IMG/VR virus record: IMGVR_UViG_3300021387_000688
Direction: 5' to 3' (one strand)
Length of the DNA stretch: 64,000 bases
Source of the DNA: a virus
Taxonomy: Duplodnaviria; Caudoviricetes
Part shown: positions 115-36,185 of the stretch, piece by piece
How positions within the stretch are numbered: the stretch's first letter is position 1
How the letters are laid out: the number at the start of each line of letters is the position of its first letter
The notes under the pieces: generated by a model
What the model saw: only the letters and a program-made list of their open reading frames with translations
The model's database searches: none
Told to the model about the DNA's origin: nothing
Position numbers and translations under genes: made by a program

Positions 115-173
115 GTAGCATAGCAATGTTCCTATTTTTTCTATTTTAAGCAAAGATTTATACATTCCGCTAC
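115..173 (+). ncRNA. Bulged-stem scaffold RNA copy 1
   Basis: GTAGC-ATA-GCAATGT-TCCTATT...TAT-ACATTC-C-GCTAC; divergent member of a six-copy family. Confidence 0.6.
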
Positions 174-681: not shown

Positions 682-809
682 ACTGCATAAGTTGTTCCTA
701 TTTAAAAGTATAATTTGCAGAGTAGCTTAATCGGTTAGAGCAACCCACTAAGTGGGAAGATAAGAGTTCGAATCTCTTCTCCGCAGCCAGGTTTTATACA
801 ACTCGCAGT
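682..809 (+). ncRNA. Scaffold RNA copy 2 enclosing a tRNA-like insert
   Basis: ACTGC-ATA-AGTTGT-TCCTATTT...TAT-ACAACT-C-GCAGT flanks a cloverleaf. Confidence 0.75.
716..789 (+). tRNA. tRNA-like RNA with collapsed anticodon loop (no assignable anticodon)
   Basis: D arm GCTT/GAGC, T arm AAGAG-TTCGAAT-CTCTT, encoded CCA; anticodon arm CCCAC-TAA-GTGGG. Confidence 0.65.
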
Positions 810-1642: not shown

Positions 1643-1719
1643 AGTGCATAAGTTGTTCCTATTTTTAAAGAAGGATACTGGATCCAGGGCGACCTGGATG
1701 ATTATATACAACTCGCACT
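1643..1719 (+). ncRNA. Scaffold RNA copy 3 (GNRA hairpin cargo)
   Basis: AGTGC-ATA-AGTTGT-TCCTATTT...ATCCAGG-GCGA-CCTGGAT...TAT-ACAACT-C-GCACT. Confidence 0.75.
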
Positions 1720-2492: not shown

Positions 2493-2522
2493 ACCCCTCT
2501 CGTGAAAGAGGGGTTTCTTTTT
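2493..2522. terminator. Intrinsic terminator between convergent units
   Basis: AACCCCTCT/AGAGGGGTT hairpin followed by T tract. Confidence 0.7.
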
Positions 2523-3537
2523 ACTCTTGAATGTAAGTTGTGTTTCTTCCTGCGTGTTTAGCAGCGTATAGATATGAGTCTAATGTTTTTATATTATCTT
2601 CTAATGAAACTCCATCCTTCCAAAAACAACCTCCTACGGAAATAGTGAATGGAGCTTTTATACTATCTTCTACTCTTGAAAGAGTTAGTATTTTAACTCT
2701 TATATCTTCTGCAATTACTTTTAATTTGTTAAAGTTGGACATTCCTTTTAATACAATAATGAATTCTTCCCCACCGTATCGTATAATTAAATCACCATAC
2801 CTTATACAACTCTTTACAGTTTTAACTAAGAATCTTAAACTTTCATCCCCATTTAAGTGACCATGTTCGTCATTAATTTTTTTGAAGAAATCAATATCAA
2901 TCATTAAAAGACCAGAATCTTTTAAGTTATCTTTACTTAATGCACATCTGTTTTTACAACCGGTTAAAGGATCTATACAAGCTTGATTTTCCAATTTGTT
3001 GTTTATAGTTATCAACGCCTGGGTTGCAAAAGTAACTGAGAATAAAGTAAATACATAAGAAGAAGAGACACCGCCTAATATGAACATTAAGTTTCTTTCC
3101 ATATAATCACTTGGCATGTTAATATGGAAATGCACTTTAATTATTAGAATAACCATTGCAAAGAATAAAGGAAAGATTCCCATCACTGAAAGTATTACGT
3201 TCTTATATCCTACTAATCCAAAAGCCGAACCTAAGATAATCCAATATGTTATGAAAACTGCATCTCTACTTGTAAATAACATTGCTGGAAAAGATATAAA
3301 TGCAGTTACTAAAACTACTAAACAACTATATGCATAATACTTTTTAAGTTTAATCATAATTGCACCTGAAAGTACTATGAAAGTCCAACTAGTTACGTTA
3401 GCAATAAAGTTAACTAATGTAAGTAAGTCTAAATTAAACCCTCTCTGCATAATAATCGGAATCGCGAATCCGTTGGATACTGCACCACAAATTAAGAGAG
3501 TAATAGCTATTAGTTTATCAATATTTTTGTTTCCCAT
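2521..3537 (-). CDS. Membrane-bound diguanylate cyclase (GGDEF domain)
   Basis: Multiple N-terminal TM segments; DPLTG..NR, DIDFFKKINDEHGHLNGD, RYGGEEF, RxxD I-site. Confidence 0.92.
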   Translation of the reverse strand: MGNKNIDKLIAITLLICGAVSNGFAIPIIMQRGFNLDLLTLVNFIANVTSWTFIVLSGAIMIKLKKYYAYSCLVVLVTAFISFPAMLFTSRDAVFITYWIILGSAFGLVGYKNVILSVMGIFPLFFAMVILIIKVHFHINMPSDYMERNLMFILGGVSSSYVFTLFSVTFATQALITINNKLENQACIDPLTGCKNRCALSKDNLKDSGLLMIDIDFFKKINDEHGHLNGDESLRFLVKTVKSCIRYGDLIIRYGGEEFIIVLKGMSNFNKLKVIAEDIRVKILTLSRVEDSIKAPFTISVGGCFWKDGVSLEDNIKTLDSYLYAAKHAGRNTTYIQE

Positions 3538-3605
3538 TTTAGTAATTTTTATTCCTCTGATTCTCTATATTGTAATATACAATATAATAAGTGGAGGTAT
3601 TATCG

Positions 3606-4271
3606 ATGGCACACAACTTTCAAAAAATCTATGCACCGTTTGGTCGTAAGAATCCAAACGATCGTCTTGTAGACACATCAATTTATTCTCGGGGCTGGGT
3701 TCAGATGTTTTACGAAAACAATGTAAAGATGAAGGCATCTGAAAAGATTGACGGAACTTCTGTAGGTATTGTTTGGGATGGAGAAAGAATCTCCTTCATT
3801 GGACATACAGAAAAGTCTCAGTTTGCTCCTCGTTATCTTGAATATCTTAACAGCCGTTTTGGTACTCCTGAATTCGAATCTGTAGTAGAAGAGATTGCAG
3901 GTGACAAAAAGGTTACAATCTACGGTGAAGGTATCTCAAAGGATTACAATGTTCACTACGGTTTCCCAGATGGTGAATTTATCCTTTACGATATCCAGAA
4001 AGAAGATGGTACATTCTGGTGCCGCGAAGCTGTTGCAAGTGTAGCTACAAAACTTGGCATGATTATGCCTTGGGAAACAGATATGACTATTCAGGAAGCA
4101 ATCGACTTCGTAAAGACTCGTCCAGCATCTAAGCTTAATCCTGAAAACAAAATGGAAGGTTTGGTACTTCGTTCACCAATTGAACTTTACAGCGCTAATC
4201 ATTTTGAGCGCATTATTTGTAAAGTTAAGGTAAAGGATTTCGTAGACCTTAAGGATTACAGGACTGAGTAA
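3606..4271 (+). CDS. RNA ligase (Rnl2-like nucleotidyltransferase)
   Basis: Motif I EKIDGT, YGE, EGLVLR, C-terminal CKVK. Confidence 0.8.
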   Translation: MAHNFQKIYAPFGRKNPNDRLVDTSIYSRGWVQMFYENNVKMKASEKIDGTSVGIVWDGERISFIGHTEKSQFAPRYLEYLNSRFGTPEFESVVEEIAGDKKVTIYGEGISKDYNVHYGFPDGEFILYDIQKEDGTFWCREAVASVATKLGMIMPWETDMTIQEAIDFVKTRPASKLNPENKMEGLVLRSPIELYSANHFERIICKVKVKDFVDLKDYRTE

Positions 4272-10526: not shown

Positions 10527-10596
10527 AAAAGCACAAGTTGTTCCTATTTGCTGATGAAGCAATACACTGTTAATGTATTTGATACAACTCGCTTTT
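10527..10596 (+). ncRNA. Scaffold RNA copy 4 carrying an Asn(GTT) anticodon stem-loop
   Basis: AAAAGC-ACA-AGTTGT-TCCTATTT...AATACA-CTGTTAA-TGTATT...AT-ACAACT-C-GCTTTT. Confidence 0.75.
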
Positions 10597-11827: not shown

Positions 11828-11900
11828 CAGCTTATAGCTCAACTTGGTAGAGCCGTGGCCACTTAATTACGGGTTGGAGGTTCAAATCCTTCTAAGCTGC
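11828..11900 (+). tRNA. tRNA-like RNA with aberrant anticodon arm (CTT-containing 8-nt loop)
   Basis: Good acceptor, D and T arms; CGTGG-CCACTTAA-TTACG. Confidence 0.6.
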
Positions 11901-11920
11901 CTTATACAAATATGATATAT

Positions 11921-11992
11921 GGGTCCTTCGTATATCGGTTAGTACTGCAGACTGTTAATCTGCGTGGGTAGGTTCGACTCCTACAGGACCCG
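11921..11992 (+). tRNA. tRNA-Asn(GTT)
   Basis: GCAGA-CTGTTAA-TCTGC, G73. Confidence 0.9.
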
Positions 11993-11999
11993 CTAAAAT

Positions 12000-12127
12000 A
12001 AAATTGCACAAGTTGTTCCTATTTTTTAGGCTCATAACCCGAAAGCGGTGGTTCGATTCCATCTCCCCTTGTCTTCGTAAGGGGATAGTGTAGTGGTAGC
12101 ACGGCGTATTATACAACTCGCAATTTT
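12000..12127 (+). ncRNA. Scaffold RNA copy 5 carrying a circularly permuted tRNA (Y RNA/YrlA-like topology)
   Basis: Order: CAT anticodon loop, T arm, acceptor TCCCCTT-loop-AAGGGGA, D arm, all inside the scaffold stem. Confidence 0.75.
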
Positions 12128-12131
12128 TTAT

Positions 12132-12204
12132 GCTGGGTAAGTTCATATGGTTGAACGCCGCCCTCATAAGGCGGATGTACGTGGTTCGAGTCCACGACTC
12201 AGTA
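12132..12204 (+). tRNA. tRNA-CAT (Met or Ile2)
   Basis: CCGCC-CTCATAA-GGCGG. Confidence 0.85.
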
Positions 12205-12210
12205 AATTAT

Positions 12211-12283: not shown

Positions 12284-12343
12284 AATGCATAAAGTGTTCC
12301 TATTAAAAACTTGACTGAAAATCAATTGTATACACTTCGCATT
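12284..12343 (+). ncRNA. Scaffold RNA copy 6 carrying a Phe(GAA) anticodon stem-loop
   Basis: AATGC-ATA-AAGTGT-TCCTATT...TTGA-CTGAAAA-TCAA...TAT-ACACTT-C-GCATT (compensatory changes). Confidence 0.75.
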
Positions 12344-12382
12344 TTTCTATTCTTTTAAGGGGCCGGCGGCCCCTATTTTTAT

Positions 12383-19120: not shown

Positions 19121-19426
19121 ATGCAATATACCCTTTATTTAAAGTCACATTTCAAGAAATATAAAAAAGAAAGAATTCCTCTTATTGCTTTTGATATAAA
19201 TGATCCAAAAAATATCTATTGGTATTTTCTTTCCGATACTCAAATTGATTGCGAAAAGCATCAAGGCTTTTGGGATGTAGATTGGGAAAGAATTAAACTG
19301 TTAAGAGATGCCATCGCAGAAGAAATAAAAAATTGGGACAAGTGGAGTCTATGTGATTCTTTTGAAGAATGGTTTGAAAAACAAACTCTTTTAAGAAATG
19401 ATTTTGAATGGGAGAAAGGTATATGA
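19121..19426 (+). CDS. Hypothetical protein
   Basis: Operon packing. Confidence 0.65.
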   Translation: MQYTLYLKSHFKKYKKERIPLIAFDINDPKNIYWYFLSDTQIDCEKHQGFWDVDWERIKLLRDAIAEEIKNWDKWSLCDSFEEWFEKQTLLRNDFEWEKGI

Positions 19427-20046
19427 AAGAAAGAATAATCTTTCTCGACATCGATGGTGTAGTGGATAGTTTAAAATATTTCAAATCTAAAAAATATAAA
19501 TCTGAAAAGGCTGACCACGAGTATGACATGTCAAATATGATAAACCGTCAGAATCTTTTTTGGGTTGGACTTCTTTGCAGAATAACAAAAGCAAAAGTTG
19601 TTTTATCCTCTACTTGGAAATATGGCTTTAACGAAGATGGTACTCCAAAAGAAATGGAGAAAGGTCACAATATGTTTAAGACAAACGACCTCTTCAAAAA
19701 ATATGGAGTTAACATTATTTCTATTACAAGAAAAGGAGAATTGGTTCCTCCAGATTGGGAATTAGATTTAGATAATTTATCTAAGTGGTGCGATGGAAGA
19801 AAATTCTCAGGTTTAGAAGATTGCAAAGAAAAAGAGTTCATTTTAAAGTATTGCCGAGGCACCCAAATTGCAGAATGGATTGAAAGAAACAATTACAAGG
19901 GAAACTATATTGTAATTGACGATGATGTAGGAGACATCATTTTCTATAAAGATTTGAAAAAGAGATTAGTTCAAACTTCGTATTATAGTAGATATGATGG
20001 TTTTAGATTTTTACATTTTTTAAAAGGATTGTGGTTGCTAAAATGA
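19423..20046 (+). CDS. HAD-family phosphatase (RNA-repair-type HAD domain)
   Basis: IIFLDIDGV, VVLSSTW, RG..I..W, IDDD motifs. Confidence 0.75.
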   Translation: MKERIIFLDIDGVVDSLKYFKSKKYKSEKADHEYDMSNMINRQNLFWVGLLCRITKAKVVLSSTWKYGFNEDGTPKEMEKGHNMFKTNDLFKKYGVNIISITRKGELVPPDWELDLDNLSKWCDGRKFSGLEDCKEKEFILKYCRGTQIAEWIERNNYKGNYIVIDDDVGDIIFYKDLKKRLVQTSYYSRYDGFRFLHFLKGLWLLK

Positions 20047-28394: not shown

Positions 28395-29180
28395 CTAAAA
28401 TGGTAGTGTAATTACAAAACTAACTCCGCCGCAAGCTGTTAAAGAAACTCCAGTTATGAATAAAGTTCTTTTCCACTCTTCTTCTATTCCTGGAATATAA
28501 GAAGTTAAGATTAAAGGTACTCCAACCCCTATCTCTACGTAAGAAGCGATTCTGGCTCTCTTTTTAATTCCTTGCAATACGGCTACTTCTTCTTGTAACT
28601 TTCTCGCCAATTTTTCATTTATTTCAAGTTGAGTTTGCAAGAGTTTTGTATCTGCTATAGCCTTATTCCATTCTTCTAAAGCCAGTGCCAAATCTTCACT
28701 TTGACTCTTTATTATCTTCTCCGTTATTCGACTTAGCCTGTTCATATGATCGAATAATTGACTCATATAATTCAGCATGGTTAATTGATATGTCGAGTGC
28801 GTAGTCTGCTGCATCGAAATATCCTGATACATTTCGGCGAAGCTCCTCATTGAATTTTTCATCGCTCTTAATTGATTGCTCAATGGCATCTGTGCATATT
28901 CTTCCGACTTCACTAGACTTTCGTAATGTTCCAACTCCTTCCAATAAGGCTTGTTCGTATCCAACTCCGGATTTGAGCGACACTCCTCCAAGATTAAGTT
29001 CATTAGCGAGTTTATCTGTTGTTTCTCTGCTGAGAACGACTCCATCGACAAGTTGTTGGCTAGTTCCTGAAATTCCTCTAAATCTGAAGAATATTCCTCC
29101 TGCGAGAAAACAGGCGACCCCAAACACAATAAGACAACCAAGCTTAATAAAAAACTTTTTATCGATTTTAATTTCCACAT
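28395..29180 (-). CDS. Exported coiled-coil protein with C-terminal TM helices (spanin-like?)
   Basis: Signal-like N-terminus, coiled coil, two C-terminal hydrophobic segments. Confidence 0.6.
   Translation of the reverse strand: MWKLKSIKSFLLSLVVLLCLGSPVFSQEEYSSDLEEFQELANNLSMESFSAEKQQINSLMNLILEECRSNPELDTNKPYWKELEHYESLVKSEEYAQMPLSNQLRAMKNSMRSFAEMYQDISMQQTTHSTYQLTMLNYMSQLFDHMNRLSRITEKIIKSQSEDLALALEEWNKAIADTKLLQTQLEINEKLARKLQEEVAVLQGIKKRARIASYVEIGVGVPLILTSYIPGIEEEWKRTLFITGVSLTACGGVSFVITLPF
28696..29178 (-). CDS. Embedded out-of-frame membrane-anchored helical protein (i-spanin-like?)
   Basis: GTG start overlapping the partner ATG; N-terminal TM; about 160 open codons. Confidence 0.45.
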   Translation of the reverse strand: MEIKIDKKFFIKLGCLIVFGVACFLAGGIFFRFRGISGTSQQLVDGVVLSRETTDKLANELNLGGVSLKSGVGYEQALLEGVGTLRKSSEVGRICTDAIEQSIKSDEKFNEELRRNVSGYFDAADYALDISINHAELYESIIRSYEQAKSNNGEDNKESK

Positions 29181-31462
29181 TAATACTCCTCGTCTTCGTC
29201 ATCGAAGTTAACTTCAAAATTATTTTTCTGACCTGCTTGGAAAATTTCCTGCACAGGACAATCTGAGAATGAATCGCTATCCCATTCTACATCCAAATAT
29301 ATTTCATACTCTGGGTCACTAGCTTGATCATATACTTCAAATTCTGTTAAAGATTTGCAACCATAGAAAGCCTCATCTTCTATCTTTGTAAGATTTACAG
29401 ATACTTCTACCTTGGATAAGTTTTCATTACGCTTAAAAGCGTCTTCAGGTATGCAAGCAACTCTCTTAGGAATTTTTATATACCTAAGATCGCAACCGTT
29501 AAATACGTCTATTCCCAGATTAGTCAATCTAGGTGGCAATTCTATTTTAGTTAAAGACCCGCATTGATTAAAGGCATTTGCTCTTATCTTTCTTAAAGAT
29601 GTAGGTAATTTAACTTCTGTTAATGAGGTGCATTCCTGAAAACATTCAGTAGGTAAAGATGTTATACCTTCTGAGATTGTTACTTTGGTTAAGTGCTCAC
29701 AATTTGCAAAAATCTTTCTTTCCAAAATGGCATTACCTGGAATAATTATTTCTTCAAGCCCTGTATTTTTAAAAGCACTTTCTTGAATTACAAAAGGGCC
29801 TTCTACTTTTGAGAAGTCTAAAACTTTAAGGTTTTCACAATCTTTAAAAGCACATTCTCCTATCGCTTTAAGATTTTTACCAAAAACTACTTTAACTATA
29901 TTTTGATTACCCTGAAAACAAGATGGTGCAAACTTTTCTACAGTCTCTTCATCAAAAACTTCTCCACTATAATTTTCTTGATCCTTTAAAACTTTAGTTA
30001 CTGTTTTTATACCCTTTACTTTAGTTGATCTTAAAGCTCCAGGCCGCTGAGCTAATAAGAATTGATTGTTTTCCACTTCTTCCAAAGATGTACAATCTTC
30101 GAAGATGTTTGTACCATATTTAGTATCTGGGTTGTTTGGTAATTTAATAGATTTGAGAGTAGATTTGTGGTAATGAGCAGAGAAAGCCTCATCCCCTACG
30201 TAAGTAACACTGTCTGGTAAGTCAAGGGCTTCTAAATCTGTACCCATGAAAGCACCAGGACCGATATACTCTAATCCGTCCGGAAGTTCAATTGTACCGC
30301 CTCCAAATGCTGTACTACAGAATGCCTTCGCCTCAATTCTTTTCAAATTACTTGGCAATTCCTGGAAAGGAGGCAACTCGGCATATCTAAAAGCTTCTTC
30401 CTCTATAACTTTACATTGTCTAGGCCAAACAATTTTTTTAGTAACTGTTATTCCTCCAAATGCTTCTTTAGATATAGTTTCCAAATCTTTTGCAAACTTT
30501 AAGATACCGATATTATTATCTGTAAGCGCACCTGAATCTATAAACTTTACAGTAGAAGGAATATACAAACTAGGAATAGTACTTGAACGTAAAGCCTCAT
30601 ATCCTAAAACTTCCAAACCTTCTGGTAATTCAATTCCCTCTTCAAGGTCCATCTGGTTAAAACAATAACCCCCTAATATTTTCAAAGTGCTAGGGAATAC
30701 GATTTTACGTGTAACTGCTTTTACACCCCTCATTGCACCTGAATCCAATCCCCTTATGAAAGTAACCCCTTCAGGGAATTCCAGAACACCATTATTCTTT
30801 TCTACAATGTCTTTAAGATCCGCAGTGATTCCATATATTTTAGAACCCCTCATCTGGAAACCATTTTCTTCTGTCAATAAATTTTCTTTTACCCATTGAG
30901 TTGCAAAACTATTAGAATCCACTCTCTTTTTTAACCAATCTGTAATCTCATGGATATTACATGTACTAAGAGACATAAGGGCCACTAATGTAGTTGTTTT
31001 AGTAGTATGTTCTAGAACAGGTTGCAATGAATCTAAAACTTCACCTAAAGACTCCCCATAGAATGCAGATGCCATATTATCTACTTTTATTGAATCAAGT
31101 AAACCAGAGGGAGCTTTCAACAACTTTGCCTTTCCAGAGCTACCGGATTTGTCTATACAAACAAAGTCTGAGTGGAAAACCAATTTGATTAATTGTTTTC
31201 TTTGACCATTTTTATCCAACTCTTCTATTAGGTAAATGGATCTCCAACCCCCTTTACCTAATTCTCTTTCAAAGCGGGATCTGTAAGTTTCATCGTAGGA
31301 CTTTTCATAATCAACAAGCCAACCACTCCATGTAGAAACTTTAAACCCGTCTTTAGTAATAAACTTTTGATAGGCGTCGTAATCCTGGGTTTTATATAAT
31401 TTCCATAAACCTTCTTCGTATATAGGTTGCAACAATTCTTCGTCTTCTCTTAAATGTCTCAT
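29180..31462 (-). CDS. BspA/TpLRR-type leucine-rich repeat protein
   Basis: Many LPxxLxxIxxxAFxxCxxL repeats. Confidence 0.9.
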   Translation of the reverse strand: MRHLREDEELLQPIYEEGLWKLYKTQDYDAYQKFITKDGFKVSTWSGWLVDYEKSYDETYRSRFERELGKGGWRSIYLIEELDKNGQRKQLIKLVFHSDFVCIDKSGSSGKAKLLKAPSGLLDSIKVDNMASAFYGESLGEVLDSLQPVLEHTTKTTTLVALMSLSTCNIHEITDWLKKRVDSNSFATQWVKENLLTEENGFQMRGSKIYGITADLKDIVEKNNGVLEFPEGVTFIRGLDSGAMRGVKAVTRKIVFPSTLKILGGYCFNQMDLEEGIELPEGLEVLGYEALRSSTIPSLYIPSTVKFIDSGALTDNNIGILKFAKDLETISKEAFGGITVTKKIVWPRQCKVIEEEAFRYAELPPFQELPSNLKRIEAKAFCSTAFGGGTIELPDGLEYIGPGAFMGTDLEALDLPDSVTYVGDEAFSAHYHKSTLKSIKLPNNPDTKYGTNIFEDCTSLEEVENNQFLLAQRPGALRSTKVKGIKTVTKVLKDQENYSGEVFDEETVEKFAPSCFQGNQNIVKVVFGKNLKAIGECAFKDCENLKVLDFSKVEGPFVIQESAFKNTGLEEIIIPGNAILERKIFANCEHLTKVTISEGITSLPTECFQECTSLTEVKLPTSLRKIRANAFNQCGSLTKIELPPRLTNLGIDVFNGCDLRYIKIPKRVACIPEDAFKRNENLSKVEVSVNLTKIEDEAFYGCKSLTEFEVYDQASDPEYEIYLDVEWDSDSFSDCPVQEIFQAGQKNNFEVNFDDEDEEY

Positions 31463-31479
31463 AATTTATTCCTTATATA

Positions 31480-33729
31480 TTAATAGTCTGCATCATCATT
31501 TTCATCATCTTCATCCCAATTAGGTTCATCTTTAAGGGCGGCTTTGAATATCTCATCTACAGGGGCTTGATAGAAAGCATCAGATTCCCAATCTACATCA
31601 ATGTATATTTCATATTCTGGATCTCTTTCTTGATCATAAACTTCAAAGTTTGTTAATGAAGTACAATAACTAAATGCATTAGCTTCTATTTTTATCAAGT
31701 TTACAGAAGATTGTACAGTAGTCAAACTCTTACAATTGTAGAATGCGCTACCCGGTATGACAGCTACTCTTTTTGGCAATTTTATTTCTTTGAGAGTTAT
31801 ACAATCTGCAAAACAACGATCTTTTAATGAACCCAATTTAGGAGGAAGATTTATATGTTGTAAGCATGTACAGTTTTGAAATGCACGTTCTCCTATAGAT
31901 CTTAAAGATTCTGGTAACTCTACATGGCTCAAACTTGTACATTCTTTAAAAATACCTGAAGGAAGTTTTTTAGTAACATTACCCCCTATAACAACTTCTC
32001 TTAAGTTACTACACCATTCGAATGCATTGTATTCGAATACTGCCCCTTGAGGTAAAATTACTTTTGTTATGTTTGTACTAGAGAAGGCATCGGCCCCTAT
32101 GAAAATAGGGTTTTTTACTCTAGAGAAATCTACCTCTTCTAAGGAGCTATCTCGGAAAGCATTTTCACCTATAACTTTAAGATTTTCTCCGAATATTACT
32201 TTTTTTAATTTTTTATTACCATTGAAGCAACTTGCACTAAATTTTTCTGCAGAAGGTTCATCAAACACTTCAATGTCTGCATTTTTCATATCTTTTATGA
32301 GTCTACTAACACTCTTAACTTTTACCTGAGTGTTTCTAAAAGCGGCAGATCTTTGACTTAATAAAGTTTCATAATGTTCTGCAGTTTTTAGATTAGGACA
32401 TTCTTGTACTATAGCTTTTCCATATTTGGTTTCAGGGTTGTTAGGTAATGTAATACTTTCAAGTTTTGAAGACTCAGAGAATGCTTCATTCCCAATAAAG
32501 GTTACGTTATCTTTTATTGTAAGATGCCCTACCTCTGCATATTTAAATGCTTCGTTTCCAATGTATTCCAAGTCTTCCGGAAGTTCAAACACTGGACCCA
32601 ATTCTGCAAATTCAAATGCTCTATCTTCTATACGTTTTACACTATCTGGTAATTCTGAGAAGTTTTCGAATTGGGCAGCTGTAAATGCTTGCTGAGATAT
32701 TGTATTGCATTGTCTAGGCCAATGTATTTTATGTAACTCGCAAGATTCAAAACACCCTGAAGGTATAGTTTCTAAAACTTTTGGAAATCTTAAAATATCA
32801 ATCTTTGTCTGATAAAAAGAAGCATCTTTCAAAGTAGAAGGTATTATTAATTTCTTAATATTGTCCCCTTCAAAAGCTGCTTTTGAAACTTTTTCTAATC
32901 CTTCGTTAAGTACAATTTCATTGAAATCTATTTCTTTAAAAGAATTGCCCAATATTCTTTTTAAAGTGCTTGGACAAATCAAGTCCACTGGTGCTTTACG
33001 ATTGATATAATATTTCCACCAGTATTCGCTACTTGAAAAAGTAACTATATCTGTAATACCTTCCGGTATTTCCAATACATATTTGTCCTCAGTAAAACAT
33101 TCTTCTGGAGATGTCGCAGTGCCAATTACTTTAGTACCTCTACATAAGAATATTCCTTTCTTCTCGCAATAATTCCTTTTAATGAAGTTTTCAGGTAAAG
33201 CTAATACTTGTCGAATGTAAACGTCTATATCCGAAGGATATGAAGATGCAATGTTTCTTACAATATTGACTATGTTAGTTTTCTTAGGGGTAGCTTCAAG
33301 TAAACTATTTGCAACCTCCATTACGTCGCATATAGATTCCCCTAAGAATAATGATTTTCCATTATTTACTTTAATCAACTCCAATAATTCTTTTGGAGCT
33401 TTCAAAAGTTTTCCCAAGGATTTTGCATTATATTTATCCTCGCAAACAAATTCACCTAAATCAAATTTTACAAGGTAGCCGTCCGTACATTCTGAACCTT
33501 TAAAAATTTCTACTACGTAATACTTAGCGTCTACGGTATGTCTTAATGAAGTCTTAAAATCTTTTTCCCTGGAATGATAAGATATCTCATACCATTTGCA
33601 GTCTGGGATATCTTGGCCTACAGATTGTATATCCTGCCAGCTTTTTATTTCAAATAATTTATACTTTCCGTTATCATATATTGGTTTTGGATGCGCAAAT
33701 TGTTTTTCAGATTCTCTAAACTTTTTCAT
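31480..33729 (-). CDS. BspA/TpLRR-type leucine-rich repeat protein
   Basis: Paralogue of the adjacent gene; shared DPEYEIY.DV.W tail. Confidence 0.9.
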   Translation of the reverse strand: MKKFRESEKQFAHPKPIYDNGKYKLFEIKSWQDIQSVGQDIPDCKWYEISYHSREKDFKTSLRHTVDAKYYVVEIFKGSECTDGYLVKFDLGEFVCEDKYNAKSLGKLLKAPKELLELIKVNNGKSLFLGESICDVMEVANSLLEATPKKTNIVNIVRNIASSYPSDIDVYIRQVLALPENFIKRNYCEKKGIFLCRGTKVIGTATSPEECFTEDKYVLEIPEGITDIVTFSSSEYWWKYYINRKAPVDLICPSTLKRILGNSFKEIDFNEIVLNEGLEKVSKAAFEGDNIKKLIIPSTLKDASFYQTKIDILRFPKVLETIPSGCFESCELHKIHWPRQCNTISQQAFTAAQFENFSELPDSVKRIEDRAFEFAELGPVFELPEDLEYIGNEAFKYAEVGHLTIKDNVTFIGNEAFSESSKLESITLPNNPETKYGKAIVQECPNLKTAEHYETLLSQRSAAFRNTQVKVKSVSRLIKDMKNADIEVFDEPSAEKFSASCFNGNKKLKKVIFGENLKVIGENAFRDSSLEEVDFSRVKNPIFIGADAFSSTNITKVILPQGAVFEYNAFEWCSNLREVVIGGNVTKKLPSGIFKECTSLSHVELPESLRSIGERAFQNCTCLQHINLPPKLGSLKDRCFADCITLKEIKLPKRVAVIPGSAFYNCKSLTTVQSSVNLIKIEANAFSYCTSLTNFEVYDQERDPEYEIYIDVDWESDAFYQAPVDEIFKAALKDEPNWDEDDENDDADY

Positions 33730-35576
33730 TAAAAACTCCTATAAGCTTCTGGGAATACTTTACTCCAAGCCGTCTTTGGTAATATTTCAATATTATCTAT
33801 TTTAGTTAAATTATTATCAAATCTAAAAGCATCCCCTTTAAACTTTTTAATACCATGAGATAAGGTTATGTGATGTAAATATCTACATTCCCTAAAAGCC
33901 ATGGAACCTAATTCTAATAAAGATTCTGGGAACTTGATTTCTACTAATCCGCTTCTTGCGAATGCATTAAATCCTATAGCTAATAAACCCTCTGGCAATT
34001 CTATTTGTTTTAAAGCTGTGCATCCATCAAATGCACTTTCTTCTATAGTTTTTACACTTTCAGGTAATTTAACCCATTCCAGTCTTTCACATCTATAGAA
34101 AGCAGATTTAGGAATAGATTCTAATCCTTTACCTATTGCAATATGTGTTATAGATTTAGAACCTTCAAAAGTAAAATCCGTACAAGTACCTGGAATATAT
34201 ATTTGAGTTACTTTAGAATTGCTAAAAGCATTCCTTCCTATTTTCTTTAATCCCAAAGGTAATTTAATATCTTCCAAAGAATTGCAATAATAGAAACAGT
34301 TTGACCCTAATGTCAATTCTTCTACTTCTTTAGGGAAGATTACTTTGTTTAAGTTTTTACAATAAGAGAATGCCCCTTTTCCAATACGTGCAATGTTACC
34401 AAATACCACTTCTTCAAGATTAGTGAATTCCCTAAAGGTATTTGCATAAATGTATTTGAAGGTAGAAGGGAATGTAATTTTTCTTACATTTGCAAACATA
34501 GAAGGATCGTGTTTAGCAATGTTTAAGTTCAATGCTGTTGCACCTTCAGGTATTACCAATTCTTCATCTGCAGGTATCTTTATTACAATTCCACCGGAGG
34601 TCATTATATAATCATCAATATGGTGCAATTGTTTTTTAAAGAATGCGTTTCTGTGAGGTTCTCTATAAATTGCATCAATACCAGTATCTACTGGACCCAA
34701 TTCATCTATTATGTCTTGTAAAGATACTCCTAAGTAAATATGGTTAGGGTTGTCATCTACTATCTTTTCAAGTAATTCTCTAGGAGCCCCCGTTAACATA
34801 AAACCGTAATGAGCTTTATCGAACTTATCCATAAAGTCTATATGATCAGGGCTATAAACTAATTGCCAAGCTTCAACATATTTTCCATCTACCCAGTATT
34901 GAATTACATACATTCTAGAATGGTGAGAGGTAGTATATGAATCCCAATAACCCTTACCAGCGGCTGTACACCATTTTGTCTTGTAATGGGATGTTCCTTC
35001 ATATATAAAAGGCTCTATTCCTGAAGCTAATACAGAATCACCTTCTTGTGTTTTAGGAGAAAAGAGTTTCCAAGTTCCATCATCGTAAAGAGTATCATAT
35101 AAAAAGTTTTCTGAAATTCCCGATACTTTTCTACCTTTCTTTGCTCTACGGGCTGATAAATATTCTATTATATCGTGTTCAAGCTTGTGCCAATCATCAT
35201 AATTAAAACTATTATCTTCTATAATGTTTTCTAGGATTTCGGTCCACGAATCATCTTTAAACCATTGAGTTCCGAAAGCCTGGGATAAAGCTATTAAAGT
35301 ATCTGGAGATTTATTAATTGCTTCTTCCCATTTTTCAGGACCATTAAAGGTACATTTAACTAAAAAGATGATAGTTTCGTCACCTGCAATATTAGGATCG
35401 TCTCCTAATAGAGTTAAAGTGGCGTCTACTAAGTTTGCAAAATGATCTGGATCTTCTAACATCCAAGCAGGAATATATTTTTTACCACCGATTCTTCCTG
35501 CCAATTTTCCATTACTTAATATCTCTAAAGCGTCTTGGGAACTACGAATAGACCTTTTTTCCAATAAATGTTTCAT
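33729..35576 (-). CDS. BspA/TpLRR-type leucine-rich repeat protein with TKWCT N-terminal domain
   Basis: C-terminal LRR repeats. Confidence 0.88.
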   Translation of the reverse strand: MKHLLEKRSIRSSQDALEILSNGKLAGRIGGKKYIPAWMLEDPDHFANLVDATLTLLGDDPNIAGDETIIFLVKCTFNGPEKWEEAINKSPDTLIALSQAFGTQWFKDDSWTEILENIIEDNSFNYDDWHKLEHDIIEYLSARRAKKGRKVSGISENFLYDTLYDDGTWKLFSPKTQEGDSVLASGIEPFIYEGTSHYKTKWCTAAGKGYWDSYTTSHHSRMYVIQYWVDGKYVEAWQLVYSPDHIDFMDKFDKAHYGFMLTGAPRELLEKIVDDNPNHIYLGVSLQDIIDELGPVDTGIDAIYREPHRNAFFKKQLHHIDDYIMTSGGIVIKIPADEELVIPEGATALNLNIAKHDPSMFANVRKITFPSTFKYIYANTFREFTNLEEVVFGNIARIGKGAFSYCKNLNKVIFPKEVEELTLGSNCFYYCNSLEDIKLPLGLKKIGRNAFSNSKVTQIYIPGTCTDFTFEGSKSITHIAIGKGLESIPKSAFYRCERLEWVKLPESVKTIEESAFDGCTALKQIELPEGLLAIGFNAFARSGLVEIKFPESLLELGSMAFRECRYLHHITLSHGIKKFKGDAFRFDNNLTKIDNIEILPKTAWSKVFPEAYRSF

Positions 35577-36101: not shown

Positions 36102-36185
36102 GGGCTAGTCAGTTAACGGCTAGGCTCTACGTTAAAGCCGATAGTGGAAAGCGTAGGAATGTGGGTTCGAATCCCATCTAGTCCA
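36102..36185 (+). tRNA. tRNA-like RNA with about 18-nt expanded anticodon loop
   Basis: GGGCTAG/CTAGTCC acceptor, AGTT/GGCT D arm, GTGGG-TTCGAAT-CCCAT T arm, TACGT/GCGTA stem. Confidence 0.65.

What the first reader, a model, noticed from the sequence alone, without database searches (positions are those of the whole stretch)
12000..12127. Circularly permuted tRNA inside the scaffold
The insert reads GG-CTCATAA-CCCGA (initiator-like CAT loop), T arm GGTGG-TTCGATT-CCATC, acceptor 3' strand TCCCCTT, an 8-nt loop, acceptor 5' strand AAGGGGA, TA, then D arm GTGT-AGTGGTA-GCAC. The acceptor is closed by a loop and so cannot be charged as transcribed. This is the YrlA topology, with an added retained anticodon loop. 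It may be a decoy, a protein tether, or a substrate for circularisation and re-opening by the phage RNA ligase.
Basis: partly seen in the sequence, partly recalled or inferred. Interest (0 to 1): 0.8.

Follow-up and report, generated by a model that had tools for sequence, protein, structure and literature searches.

The report
Back-to-front tRNA mimic on phage handle RNA
A giant gut phage encodes, inside its tRNA gene array, a small RNA whose core is a whole tRNA shape with a sealed amino-acid end. It is mounted on a conserved "handle" that recurs in many giant phages next to one unnamed protein gene, so it is most likely a tRNA look-alike in an undescribed RNA-protein particle and not a working tRNA.

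Summary
**Observation: confirmed to the base.** Window 12000-12127 holds a two-helix stem that encloses, in this order: a CUCAUAA loop, a T arm, a 7-bp acceptor helix closed by an 8-nt cap, U8-A9 and a D arm.

**It is not chance.**
- The same rotated order on the same stem occurs in at least 13 different IMG/VR phage contigs.
- All 7 acceptor pairs show compensatory changes.
- The tertiary 15:48 pair covaries in 11 of 13 sequences.

**New detail.** The anticodon stem is built from three strands. Pairs 28-29:41-42 come from the segment after the D arm, and pairs 30-31:39-40 are local. The break therefore lies inside the anticodon stem and the loop stays closed.

**The enclosing stem is a family.**
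- My covariance model of this "handle" RNA finds exactly six copies in the window. This one scores 37.1 bits, E 6e-8.
- Related giant phages carry 5-7 copies each.
- One to five copies flank a roughly 600-aa helical plus TerD-like protein gene in 7 of 8 loci.

**Relation to YrlA: the design matches, membership fails.**
- Rfam YrlA scores 17.3 bits here and 34-47 bits in relatives, against a threshold of 69.
- The Ro60-binding motif is absent.
- No TROVE gene was found.

**Reading.** A Y-RNA-like tRNA mimic with a different partner protein. The circular pre-tRNA route is unlikely.

This scan had already noted the same kind of RNA on other phage DNA and elsewhere in this genome. The tool for finding RNA-seq runs was closed.

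The parts
12000..12007 (+). Handle outer stem, 5' strand (AAAAUUGC). The conserved G-C and C-G pairs are 12006-12007.
   Evidence: Pairs with 12120-12127 in the MFE fold. Handle model R1 aligns 12003-12007. The outer helix covaries in 37 handles.
12008..12010 (+). Handle internal loop, 5' side (ACA), opposite the single C12119.
   Evidence: This loop reads ATA, AAA, ACA or AGA in 69 of 73 handles collected.
12011..12016 (+). Handle inner stem, 5' strand (AGUUGU).
   Evidence: Pairs with 12113-12118. 100% paired, with 4 of 6 positions showing double changes across 37 handles.
12017..12023 (+). Invariant single-stranded handle motif UCCUAUU.
   Evidence: Exact GTTCCTATT occurs six times in the window, all on the + strand. 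The motif reads TCCTATT in 50 of 73 handles.
12029..12042 (+). Anticodon-like arm: G12029 and G12030 pair locally with C12039 and C12038. Loop CUCAUAA is 12031-12037 (CAU 12033-12035). 3' strand CCCGA is 12038-12042.
   Evidence: The composite-stem analysis shows local pairs 30'-31' formed in 10 of 10 family members that keep a 7-nt loop.
12043..12046 (+). Variable loop AAGC. C12046 is position 48.
   Evidence: C48 pairs with G15 (G12093). The 15:48 pair covaries in 11 of 13.
12047..12063 (+). T arm GGUGG-UUCGAUU-CCAUC.
   Evidence: aligned to the T arm of YrlA and of the tRNA model.
12064..12085 (+). Acceptor helix closed into a hairpin: UCCCCUU (12064-12070), cap GUCUUCGU (12071-12078), AAGGGGA (12079-12085). 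No CCA is encoded.
   Evidence: 7 of 7 pairs form here. Across the family it is 98% paired, with double changes at 7 of 7 positions.
12086..12102 (+). U8-A9 (12086-12087) and D arm GUGU-AGUGGUA-GCAC, with G18-G19 at 12095-12096.
   Evidence: Neither the D arm nor its GG was part of the search pattern.
12103..12112 (+). G26 (12103); G12104, C12105 and G12106 are positions 27-29, which supply the upper anticodon-stem pairs (C12105-G12041, G12106-C12040). This is followed by linker UAUU and the conserved AU.
   Evidence: Long-range pairs form at position 27 in 9 of 10, position 28 in 10 of 10, position 29 in 8 of 10 and position 30 in 0 of 10 loop-bearing members.
12113..12127 (+). Handle 3' strands: inner ACAACU (12113-12118), unpaired C12119, outer GCAAUUUU (12120-12127). 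Further U residues follow, and the next tRNA starts at 12131.
115..173 (+). Handle copy 1, with a short unstructured cargo.
   Evidence: R1 39.4 bits, E 1.4e-8.
682..809 (+). Handle copy 2. Its cargo is a normal-order tRNA-like with a collapsed anticodon loop and an encoded GCCA.
   Evidence: R1 46.0 bits. ARAGORN calls Leu(taa) at 716-789. Sequence.
1643..1719 (+). Handle copy 3. Its cargo is a GCGA-capped hairpin.
   Evidence: R1 50.5 bits. Sequence.
10528..10595 (+). Handle copy 4. Its cargo is a small hairpin plus an anticodon stem-loop with GUU.
   Evidence: R1 46.1 bits. The same cargo type occurs in L091, L125 and L132.
12284..12343 (+). Handle copy 6. Its cargo is an anticodon-like stem-loop with GAA. 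A terminator follows at 12358-12374.
   Evidence: R1 60.3 bits. Terminator scan.

Best explanation
Window 12000-12127 is a non-coding RNA gene. It is transcribed within the long tRNA operon that runs from 10.4 to 12.37 kb. The enzymes that trim the flanking tRNA-Asn and tRNA-Met probably release it.

**Two modules.**
1. A conserved 'handle': two covarying helices, an AYA/C internal loop and a single-stranded UCCUAUU. Its gene linkage suggests it is the binding site of a conserved phage protein of about 600 aa, with a helical N-terminal part and a TerD-like C-terminal domain.
2. A cargo, which here is a complete circularly permuted tRNA body.

**The cargo.** It has a T arm, a 7-bp acceptor helix sealed by a cap, U8-A9 and a D arm. 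Its anticodon stem is assembled from the segment after the D arm (positions 27-29) plus a local GG, and it closes an intact CUCAUAA loop. The handle leaves through the nick between positions 29 and 30.

**Proposed action.** The module should fold into the tRNA L-shape but cannot be aminoacylated as made. It most likely acts as a tRNA mimic tethered to the handle particle. It would either recruit or soak up a protein that recognises the tRNA elbow or the anticodon arm, in the way YrlA works with Ro60.

**Shown.**
- The anatomy.
- Conservation of the permuted order.
- Covariation of the helices.
- Membership in the handle family.
- The handle-gene linkage in relatives.

**Inferred.**
- Protein binding to the handle.
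- Release by tRNA processing.
- The mimic, decoy or adaptor role.
For: **Anatomy and recurrence.**
- Exact anatomy.
- The rotated order recurs on the same handle in 12 IMG/VR loci, and further CAU-type copies occur in metagenomes.
- Helix statistics and 15:48 covariation.
- The three-strand anticodon stem reaches 5 of 5 pairs in 12 of 16 sequences. Position 30 never pairs long-range, and local positions 30'-31' always pair, in 10 of 10 loop-bearing members.

**Acceptor caps.** They are often stable tetraloops (C-GAAA-G, C-UUCG-G, GUUU, UUAA) and none encodes CCA.

**Handle family.**
- Model R1 finds exactly six + strand copies in the window, including this one at 37.1 bits, E 6e-8, which was not in the training set.
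- Covariation of the two helices.
- The handle motif gave 5-7 matches in each of four related giant-phage records and none in a fifth. The reversed control pattern gave no hits in any.
- The copies lie inside tRNA arrays on the tRNA strand.

**Linkage to a protein gene.**
- Handles flank a gene of the A2 protein family, on the same strand and within about 150 nt, in 7 of 8 loci.
- This includes 4 of 4 loci chosen by protein similarity alone.
- The protein's C-terminal domain is TerD-like: Z 10.5 and 9.9.

**Similarity to YrlA.** The Rfam model matches the permuted copies of relatives at 34-47 bits, E 1e-7 to 1e-3. It matches the T, acceptor-like and D core here at 17.3 bits.

**Transcription context.** No + strand promoter-like or terminator-like site lies between 10607 and 12358.
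Against: - Transcription, RNA ends and stability are therefore inferred.
- The A2-family gene is not in this 64-kb window. I could not search the rest of the 397,621-bp contig.
- One partial related record (G005) has handles, but none lies beside its A2 gene. Another partial record (G004) has no A2 match.
- Binding of the protein to the handle is inferred only from gene neighbourhood.
- The proposed cloverleaf is 7 kcal/mol above the MFE fold, and the local anticodon hairpin adds about 0 kcal/mol.
- The window copy and its nearest relative score poorly with the YrlA model.
Confidence: 0.6

Rival explanations
1. It is a genuine permuted tRNA gene, as in Cyanidioschyzon merolae. The handle is cut off on both strands and the ends at positions 29 and 30 are joined by the phage RNA ligase to give a circle. 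RNase P and 3' trimming plus CCA addition then open the acceptor cap. The product would be a decoding tRNA with anticodon CAU.
For: - All four tRNA arms, an intact 7-nt anticodon loop and an exactly 7-bp acceptor are kept here and in relatives.
- The rotated sequence is called tRNA-Met by ARAGORN.
- An RNA_ligase (PF09414) gene lies at 3591-4271, and a HAD_SAK_2 RNA-repair-type domain at 19408-20046.
- Wang et al. raise this possibility for YrlA (10.1101/312249).
Against: - The same handle carries cargos that could never become tRNAs: 17-22-nt loops, lone anticodon hairpins, lone T arms and a GNRA hairpin. It also carries normal-order tRNA-likes that need no circularisation.
- Some permuted members have no anticodon loop at all (L137, L141).
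- Caps are tight tetraloops without CCA, or without room for a 3' trailer.
- The handle is not a bulge-helix-bulge motif: it has a 3-nt bulge, a 6-bp helix and an asymmetric far side.
- No bacterial or phage splicing endonuclease is known (stated in 10.1101/312249).
- A normal tRNA-Met(CAT) gene sits 4 nt downstream.
Confidence: 0.08
2. The same handle-tethered mimic, but opened after transcription as in Mycobacterium smegmatis YrlA. RNase P would cut between U12078 and A12079. The cap would be nibbled back and CCA added. The result would be a two-piece, possibly chargeable tRNA-like RNA held together by the acceptor, anticodon-stem and handle helices.
For: - M. smegmatis YrlA, the YrlA with a 7-bp acceptor stem, is cut by RNase P in vitro and in vivo and receives CCA. 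Chen et al. name 7 bp as the determinant (PMC4201824).
- Every permuted member here keeps exactly 7 acceptor pairs stacked on a 5-bp T stem.
- Normal-order tRNA cargos on handles all encode N-CCA, so a CCA end seems to matter to the family.
Against: - Tetraloop caps that extend the helix (C-GAAA-G, C-UUCG-G; G71-U78 and U72-G77 wobbles here) favour a sealed hairpin.
- No discriminator-plus-trailer design is seen.
- There are no RNA data.
Confidence: 0.17
3. It is an ordinary, divergent YrlA-type Y RNA that works with a host-encoded Ro60 (Rsr).
For: - Same T, closed-acceptor, D order between terminal strands.
- Sub-threshold but significant YrlA hits in relatives.
- D. radiodurans Y RNAs are co-transcribed with a tRNA (PMC4201824).
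- TROVE is present in some gut bacteria, for example the Bacteroides thetaiotaomicron control genome.
Against: - 17.3 bits against a threshold of 69.
- The GNCGAAN0-1G motif is absent from this RNA and from the 5' 25 nt of 73 of 73 handles.
- No TROVE or DUF2828 in 5 related phage records, 2 of them complete, nor among the window ORFs scanned.
- The handle is instead linked to a different protein family.
- The host is unknown.
Confidence: 0.1
4. It is a decayed or rearranged tRNA pseudogene, or a chance arrangement, with no function of its own.
For: - Phage tRNA arrays are prone to duplication.
- The segment is not closely related to any tRNA of the window: at most 63% identity.
Against: - The order is conserved in at least 13 contigs, with fully compensated acceptor, D, T and handle helices.
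- A tertiary pair covaries.
- The handle model scores E 6e-8.
Confidence: 0.02

Closest known systems
YrlA (Y RNA-like A; Rfam RF02553), the tRNA-mimicking Y RNA bound by bacterial and phage Ro60/Rsr (Chen et al. 2014, PMC4201824; Wang et al. 2018, 10.1101/312249)
   Same: - The order is 5' strand, variable region, T arm, loop-closed acceptor-like stem, D arm, 3' strand.
- The tRNA tertiary set is kept (15:48, G18-G19, T loop).
- Several RNAs with one shared stem and different tops occur per genome.
- The RNA genes sit in tandem beside one protein gene on the same strand.
- They are co-transcribed with tRNAs.
- The YrlA model aligns the T, acceptor-like and D core here and scores 34-47 bits in relatives.
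   Different: - The score is below the gathering threshold everywhere: 17.3 bits here.
- The stem carries GC-AYA...UCCUAUU in place of GNCGAAN0-1G.
- No TROVE gene was found. The linked protein has a helical N-terminal part with no detected Ro60 match and a TerD-like C-terminal domain, where Ro60 has a vWA domain.
- The acceptor is a full 7 bp.
- An intact anticodon loop is kept on a three-strand stem.
- The handle also carries cargos that are not tRNA-like.
Circularly permuted tRNA genes of Cyanidioschyzon merolae and other algae and archaea (Soma et al. 2007, as cited in 10.1101/312249)
   Same: - The 3' half is encoded before the 5' half.
- The acceptor strands are joined by a short spacer.
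- The termini pair to form a stem next to the anticodon region.
   Different: - There is no bulge-helix-bulge motif and no known splicing endonuclease in bacteria or phages.
- The same flanking stem carries many cargos that cannot become tRNAs.
- Caps are tetraloops without a CCA or trailer design.
Phage phiLo Ro60 with its two upstream Y RNA-like genes Yrl1 and Yrl2 (PMC12135203)
   Same: Small structured RNA genes lie in tandem immediately upstream of the gene for their (proposed) binding protein in a phage.
   Different: That protein is a true TROVE plus vWA ring, and its RNAs carry the CGAA motif. Neither is the case here.
T4 stable RNAs C and D (species 1 and 2), encoded in the T4 tRNA cluster
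   Same: Small stable RNAs of unknown function that are co-transcribed with phage tRNAs.
   Different: The handle model finds nothing there: the best score in the T4 region is 9.1 bits, and that match is not on these genes.

Membership tests
YrlA / bacterial Y RNA (RF02553) | T arm, then a loop-closed acceptor-like stem, then a D arm, enclosed by a stem formed from the 5' and 3' parts of the RNA. | tested here: met
   The YrlA model aligns its positions 30-81 to 12046-12102.
YrlA / bacterial Y RNA (RF02553) | Score at or above Rfam's gathering threshold (69 bits). | tested here: not met
   17.3 bits, E 0.19, and not listed at E<=10 in a 581-nt search. Relatives reach 34-47 bits.
YrlA / bacterial Y RNA (RF02553) | GNCGAAN0-1G Ro60-binding motif near the 5' end (PMC4201824). 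| tested here: not met
   A regular-expression search finds none in 11990-12135 and none in the first 25 nt of 73 handles.
YrlA / bacterial Y RNA (RF02553) | A Ro60/TROVE gene within about 4 kb on the same strand. | tested here: not met
   No TROVE hit among 30 window ORFs scanned with Pfam. That set did not include four ORFs of 300 aa or more. PF05731 gave 0 of 5 related phage records, two of them complete. A host gene cannot be excluded.
Canonical tRNA (RF00005) | Cloverleaf in 5'-to-3' order, with a score at or above 29 bits or an ARAGORN call. | tested here: not met
   No ARAGORN call. 17.8-20.1 bits, partial match only.
Permuted tRNA gene matured through a circle (C. merolae type) | 3' half upstream of the 5' half, and rotation restores a full cloverleaf. 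| tested here: met
   The rotated 71-nt sequence is called tRNA-Met(CAT). The anticodon stem has 4 of 5 pairs.
Permuted tRNA gene matured through a circle (C. merolae type) | Bulge-helix-bulge motif (3-nt bulges separated by 4 bp) at the processing site. | tested here: not met
   The handle has a 3-nt/1-nt internal loop, then a 6-bp helix, then UCCUAUU opposite AU.
Permuted tRNA gene matured through a circle (C. merolae type) | A circular intermediate and a mature CCA-ended tRNA exist. | not testable with these tools
   R1 37.1 bits, E 6.1e-8 at 12003-12124. This copy was not in the training set.
   Absent from the 64-kb window. The rest of the 397,621-bp contig could not be searched. Present in 4 of 5 related records.
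Ro60-like fold for the handle-linked protein | HEAT-repeat ring (TROVE) plus a vWA domain. | tested here: inconclusive
   AF2 models have pLDDT 79.7 and 80.5. The C-terminal domain is TerD-like, not vWA. The N-terminal domain gave no Ro60 row; its best Z of 7.2 is to a 66-residue helical hairpin.

The most novel reading that the evidence does not exclude
The handle and its TerD-domain protein form a phage particle that displays interchangeable tRNA parts as baits: anticodon arms, T arms and whole sealed tRNAs. The baits would capture or misdirect host tRNA-targeting defence nucleases or tRNA-modifying enzymes. This copy would present a Met/Ile2-type CAU anticodon arm on a full tRNA body. That would make it a programmable RNA decoy system for counter-defence, and not a Ro60-style RNA quality-control particle.
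Probability: 0.2. Interest if true: 0.85.

Novelty: new variant of a known kind. Interest (0 to 1): 0.65.

Why it matters
- tRNA mimicry by a rotated, sealed tRNA is so far tied to Ro60 and its Y RNAs. Here the same design sits on a different conserved stem that travels with a different, unannotated protein family. That family has at least 870-940 relatives in public metagenomes.
- Giant phages carry 5-7 such RNAs each, with swappable tRNA-derived tops.
- If the particle is real, it is a second, independent RNP built around tRNA look-alikes. It would be a candidate player in the conflict over host tRNAs, through anticodon nucleases, repair and modification.
- It also shows that gene finders miss a class of tRNA-derived genes inside phage tRNA arrays.
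- The three-strand anticodon stem is a testable structural prediction.

Tried and rejected
1. **RNA evidence.** There is no evidence on expression or RNA junctions.
2. **Own genome.** No genome is held for the window. The contig was identified as ENA ERZ12302816 NODE_7, 397,621 bp, but it is not searchable. No homologue in the two protein searches lies on a contig of that length.
3. **Close phage relatives.** blastn against 50,697 phage records found only tRNA-level matches.
4. **Too-short search word.** A 14-mer scan of viral contigs gave mostly chance hits and was replaced by longer patterns.
5. **Anti-Shine-Dalgarno idea for UCCUAUU.** Its complement AATAGGA is not enriched in the window: 20 observed against 15.7 expected, and 6 of the 20 are the handles themselves.
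6. **Conserved neighbour genes by BLAST.** No family was shared by three or more genomes in 20-kb flanks of the tRNA-array handle clusters. The linkage appeared only at the A2 gene itself.
7. **Ro60 likeness of the linked protein.**
   - No PDB sequence hit.
   - No Pfam hit.
   - No Ro60 row in the Foldseek or VIA searches of the whole protein or of the N-terminal domain.
   - The question stays open; Ro60 likeness is not excluded.
8. **T4 RNAs C and D.** They are not matched by the handle model.
9. **DUF2828.** The search rang nowhere, controls included, so it is uninformative.
10. **Metagenome scan for CAU-type copies.** Most of the 103 matching stretches (71 distinct parsed sequences) were ordinary tRNAs preceded by a chance TCCTATT. 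Only L237, L248, L273 and L295 were true handle copies.
11. **Purely local anticodon hairpin.** The UUAGG/CCCGA reading was replaced by the three-strand stem after the family comparison. For the window copy alone, both readings give 4 of 5 pairs.
Full report
**1. What is there**

The window is part of an uncultured giant phage. A protein of the window is encoded on a 397,621-bp ENA metagenome contig. Between about 8.1 and 12.5 kb it carries two + strand arrays, and ARAGORN tRNA genes in the window in all.

The finding lies between tRNA-Asn (11921-11993) and tRNA-Met (12131-12205).
- an outer stem, 12000-12007 with 12120-12127
- an ACA/C internal loop
- an inner stem, 12011-12016 with 12113-12118
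- UCCUAUU
- GG, then the loop CUCAUAA, then CCCGA
- a canonical T arm (GGUGG-UUCGAUU-CCAUC)
- UCCCCUU, an 8-nt cap and AAGGGGA, which form a perfect 7-bp helix
- U8-A9
- a D arm with G18-G19

ARAGORN and Rfam do not call it a tRNA: Rfam tRNA reaches 17.8-20.1 bits against a cut-off of 29. I joined the 5' half behind the 3' half in silico. Of the 225 junction trimmings tried, ARAGORN called 103 a tRNA, and 63 of those as tRNA-Met(CAT). The simplest rotation is 71 nt long. It is at most 63% identical to any tRNA of the window, so it is not a fresh duplicate.

**2. It is not chance**

A pattern that required only the stem motifs and a T loop found the same arrangement in 12 IMG/VR loci, many from contigs of 140-500 kb. 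The features below were not in the pattern. In 13 non-redundant sequences:
- The acceptor helix is 98% paired, with double (compensatory) changes at 7 of 7 positions. With shuffled partners the mean is 47% and the maximum 70%.
- The D stem is 98% paired, with double changes at 4 of 4 positions.
- The D loop always holds GG.
- The tertiary Levitt pair 15:48 is G:C or A:U in 11 of 13. In the window it is G12093:C12046.

Covariation of a tertiary pair argues that the L-shape is under selection.

**3. The anticodon arm is a three-strand helix**

The purely local hairpin UUAGG/CCCGA has an A-C mismatch and contributes about 0 kcal/mol. I compared the family members that keep a 7-nt loop.

| Position in the anticodon-stem 5' strand | Paired by the segment after the D arm (long-range) | Paired by the local strand |
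|---|---|---|
| 27 | 9 of 10 | 8 of 10 |
| 28 | 10 of 10 | 1 of 10 |
| 29 | 8 of 10 | 5 of 10 |
| 30 | 0 of 10 | 10 of 10 |
| 31 | 5 of 10 | 10 of 10 |

The composite stem reaches 5 of 5 pairs in 12 of 16 sequences. In the window:
- C12105-G12041 and G12106-C12040 stack on G12029-C12039 and G12030-C12038.
- Pair 27:43 is G-A.

The permutation point therefore lies inside the anticodon-stem 5' strand, between positions 29 and 30. The CAU loop stays closed, and the handle leaves through the nick. Other members have lost the loop altogether and keep only a 4-5-bp long-range stem (L137, L141, L142b).

'Initiator-like' is not warranted. CUCAUAA also occurs in elongator Met and Ile2 tRNAs. Pair 1:72 is A-U, and only two G-C pairs adjoin the loop. 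This rests on established tRNA identity rules.

**4. The enclosing stem is a family of its own**

- Exact GTTCCTATT occurs six times in the window, all on the + strand.
- I aligned 37 short-cargo copies from the window and from other phages. The alignment shows two helices with 121 double-change cells, against 41.8 in shuffles, and 28-46% pairing when the partner columns are slid. I had selected these copies for pairing, so the 98% paired figure is partly by construction.
- The covariance model built from that alignment finds exactly the six copies in the 64-kb window. The best other matches score 13.9 bits or less.
- This copy scores 37.1 bits, E 6e-8, and was not in the training set.
- The handle motif gave 5-7 matches in each of four related giant-phage records and none in a fifth. 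The reversed control pattern gave no hits in any.
- The copies lie inside tRNA arrays on the tRNA strand, a few bases from their neighbours.

Cargos range widely:
- 17-22-nt A/U-rich loops
- hairpins
- lone anticodon stem-loops, very often with GUU
- lone T arms
- permuted whole tRNAs
- normal-order tRNA-likes, all of which encode N-CCA (window 682-809 has GCCA)

Rfam 15 has no family for the handle.

**5. A linked protein**

In one 501-kb phage record, four tandem handles lie directly upstream of a 582-aa ORF. That ORF belongs to a large family without any Pfam domain: at least 940 relatives at E<=1e-5 in one search and 873 at E<=1e-20 in a second.

A profile of the family hits 4 of 5 handle-bearing phage records, including both complete genomes. 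The handle model finds 1-5 handles on the gene's strand within about 150 nt of its start or stop in 7 of 8 loci. This includes all four loci chosen by protein similarity alone.

AlphaFold models have pLDDT 79.7 and 80.5:
- The C-terminal domain is a TerD-like beta-sandwich: Z 10.5 to 2qz7_B and 9.9 to 2kxt.
- The N-terminal part is helical and gave no convincing match, including no Ro60 match.

I therefore do not call the protein Ro60-like. The arrangement of RNA genes beside a protein gene parallels rsr with yrlA, and phiLo Ro60 with Yrl1/2 (PMC4201824; PMC12135203). The protein gene is not in this window, and I could not search the rest of the contig.

**6. Relation to YrlA**

Chen et al. 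define YrlA by four features (PMC4201824):
- a 5' GNCGAAN0-1G motif
- nearly invariant T and D stem-loops
- a stem-loop between them that stands for the acceptor stem
- a position within 4 kb of rsr on the same strand

[quoted passage not shown] The design is therefore known.

| Test | Result |
|---|---|
| RF02553 score, this copy | 17.3 bits, E 0.19, over model positions 30-81 (threshold 69) |
| RF02553 score, permuted copies of relatives | 34-47 bits, E 1e-7 to 1e-3 |
| RF02553 score, tandem ordinary tRNAs (background) | 26-28 bits |
| GNCGAAN0-1G in this RNA | absent |
| GNCGAAN0-1G in the 5' part of 73 handles | absent in 73 of 73 |
| TROVE among 30 window ORFs scanned with Pfam | none |
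| TROVE in five related phage records, two complete | none |

Verdict: it works like a YrlA-type tRNA mimic but is not a member of that family.

**7. How it probably works**

There is no + strand promoter-like or terminator-like site between 10607 and 12358, and a strong terminator follows handle copy 6. The RNA is therefore most likely made as part of the tRNA operon and freed by processing of its neighbours. RNase P cleavage at 12130/12131 would leave the U-rich tail.

My best reading (0.6) is a stable, non-chargeable tRNA mimic tethered to a protein-binding handle. It would act as an adaptor or as a decoy for a factor that reads the tRNA elbow or the anticodon arm.

The rivals, with my odds:
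- **RNase P-opened variant (0.17).** As in M. smegmatis YrlA, RNase P would open the cap and CCA would be added. The strict 7-bp acceptor makes this plausible. The tetraloop caps and the wobble pairs that extend the helix argue against it.
- **Circular pre-tRNA route (0.08).** It is disfavoured because the same handle carries many cargos that cannot become tRNAs, some permuted members lack an anticodon loop, there is no bulge-helix-bulge motif, and a normal tRNA-Met gene lies 4 nt downstream.
- **Ordinary Y RNA for a host Ro60 (0.1).** See section 6.
- **Pseudogene or chance (0.02).**

**8. Novelty and earlier notes**

The rotated, sealed tRNA is a known kind (YrlA). What I could not find in Rfam 15, Pfam or the searchable literature is:
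- the handle
- its linked TerD-domain protein family
- the modular tRNA-part cargos
- the three-strand anticodon stem

This scan has already noted the same kind of RNA on other phage DNA and elsewhere in this genome. I tested the handle, the protein linkage and the TerD-like fold myself. I did not reproduce the claimed Ro60 likeness.

**Limits**
- Protein binding is inferred from gene neighbourhood only.
- The partner gene is unverified in this genome.

Noticed in passing
window 682-809: A handle copy whose cargo is a normal-order tRNA-like. Its anticodon arm is collapsed (CCCAC-UAA-GUGGG) and it encodes GCCA, whereas the array tRNAs lack CCA. All five normal-order tRNA cargos seen on handles in other phages also encode N-CCA (L120 2528-2651, L125 2201-2329, L169 6856-6971, L146 1814-1933).
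   Followed up: partly
window 10528-10595 and 12284-12343; L091 9856-9922, L125 3530-3600, L132 4209-4279, L142 1234-1303: Anticodon loops displayed on handles are mostly those of ANN-codon readers: GUU many times, then GGU, CAU, UUU and GCU. GAA and CCC also occur. The hairpin-plus-GUU-loop cargo of copy 4 is conserved almost letter for letter across several phages on covarying handles.
   Followed up: partly
window 11828-11901: ARAGORN reports a tRNA with a four-base anticodon (actt) and no assigned amino acid. Rfam tRNA scores it 40.2 bits. It may be a frameshift-type or decayed tRNA.
   Followed up: no
window 36102-36185: A weak Rfam tRNA match (33.6 bits) far from the arrays that ARAGORN does not call.
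   Followed up: no
window 19408-20046 and 3591-4271: RNA-repair-type genes lie near the RNA island: a HAD_SAK_2 domain protein (PF18143, E 7.7e-16) and an RNA_ligase (PF09414, E 6.9e-14). A homologue of the HAD protein lies near the permuted handle RNA in L139.
   Followed up: no
window 2521-3537 (-), 29180-35576 (-): A GGDEF diguanylate cyclase gene lies antisense within the RNA island. There are also three large BspA-type leucine-rich-repeat proteins in a row.
   Followed up: no
L183 4005-4418 and L184 3231-3644: A PRTase-CE (PF24390) gene lies about 750 nt downstream of the handle-linked TerD-domain protein gene. Phosphoribosyltransferases and TerD proteins both belong to the Ter stress and conflict systems described by Iyer et al. 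(PMC7824862).
   Followed up: no
L185 3289-3652: Five tandem handle RNAs lie directly downstream of the TerD-domain protein gene. The first of them carries a permuted tRNA-like cargo. A tRNA-like sequence lies upstream of the same gene.
   Followed up: partly
L136 84-522: A full tmRNA gene (Rfam 84.4 bits) lies in a phage contig that also carries several handle RNAs.
   Followed up: no
L196 (T4 70908-71171): T4 rnaC ends with a T-arm-like GGGUUCGAAUCCC followed by an acceptor-like strand, but neither rnaC nor rnaD fits the handle model.
   Followed up: yes
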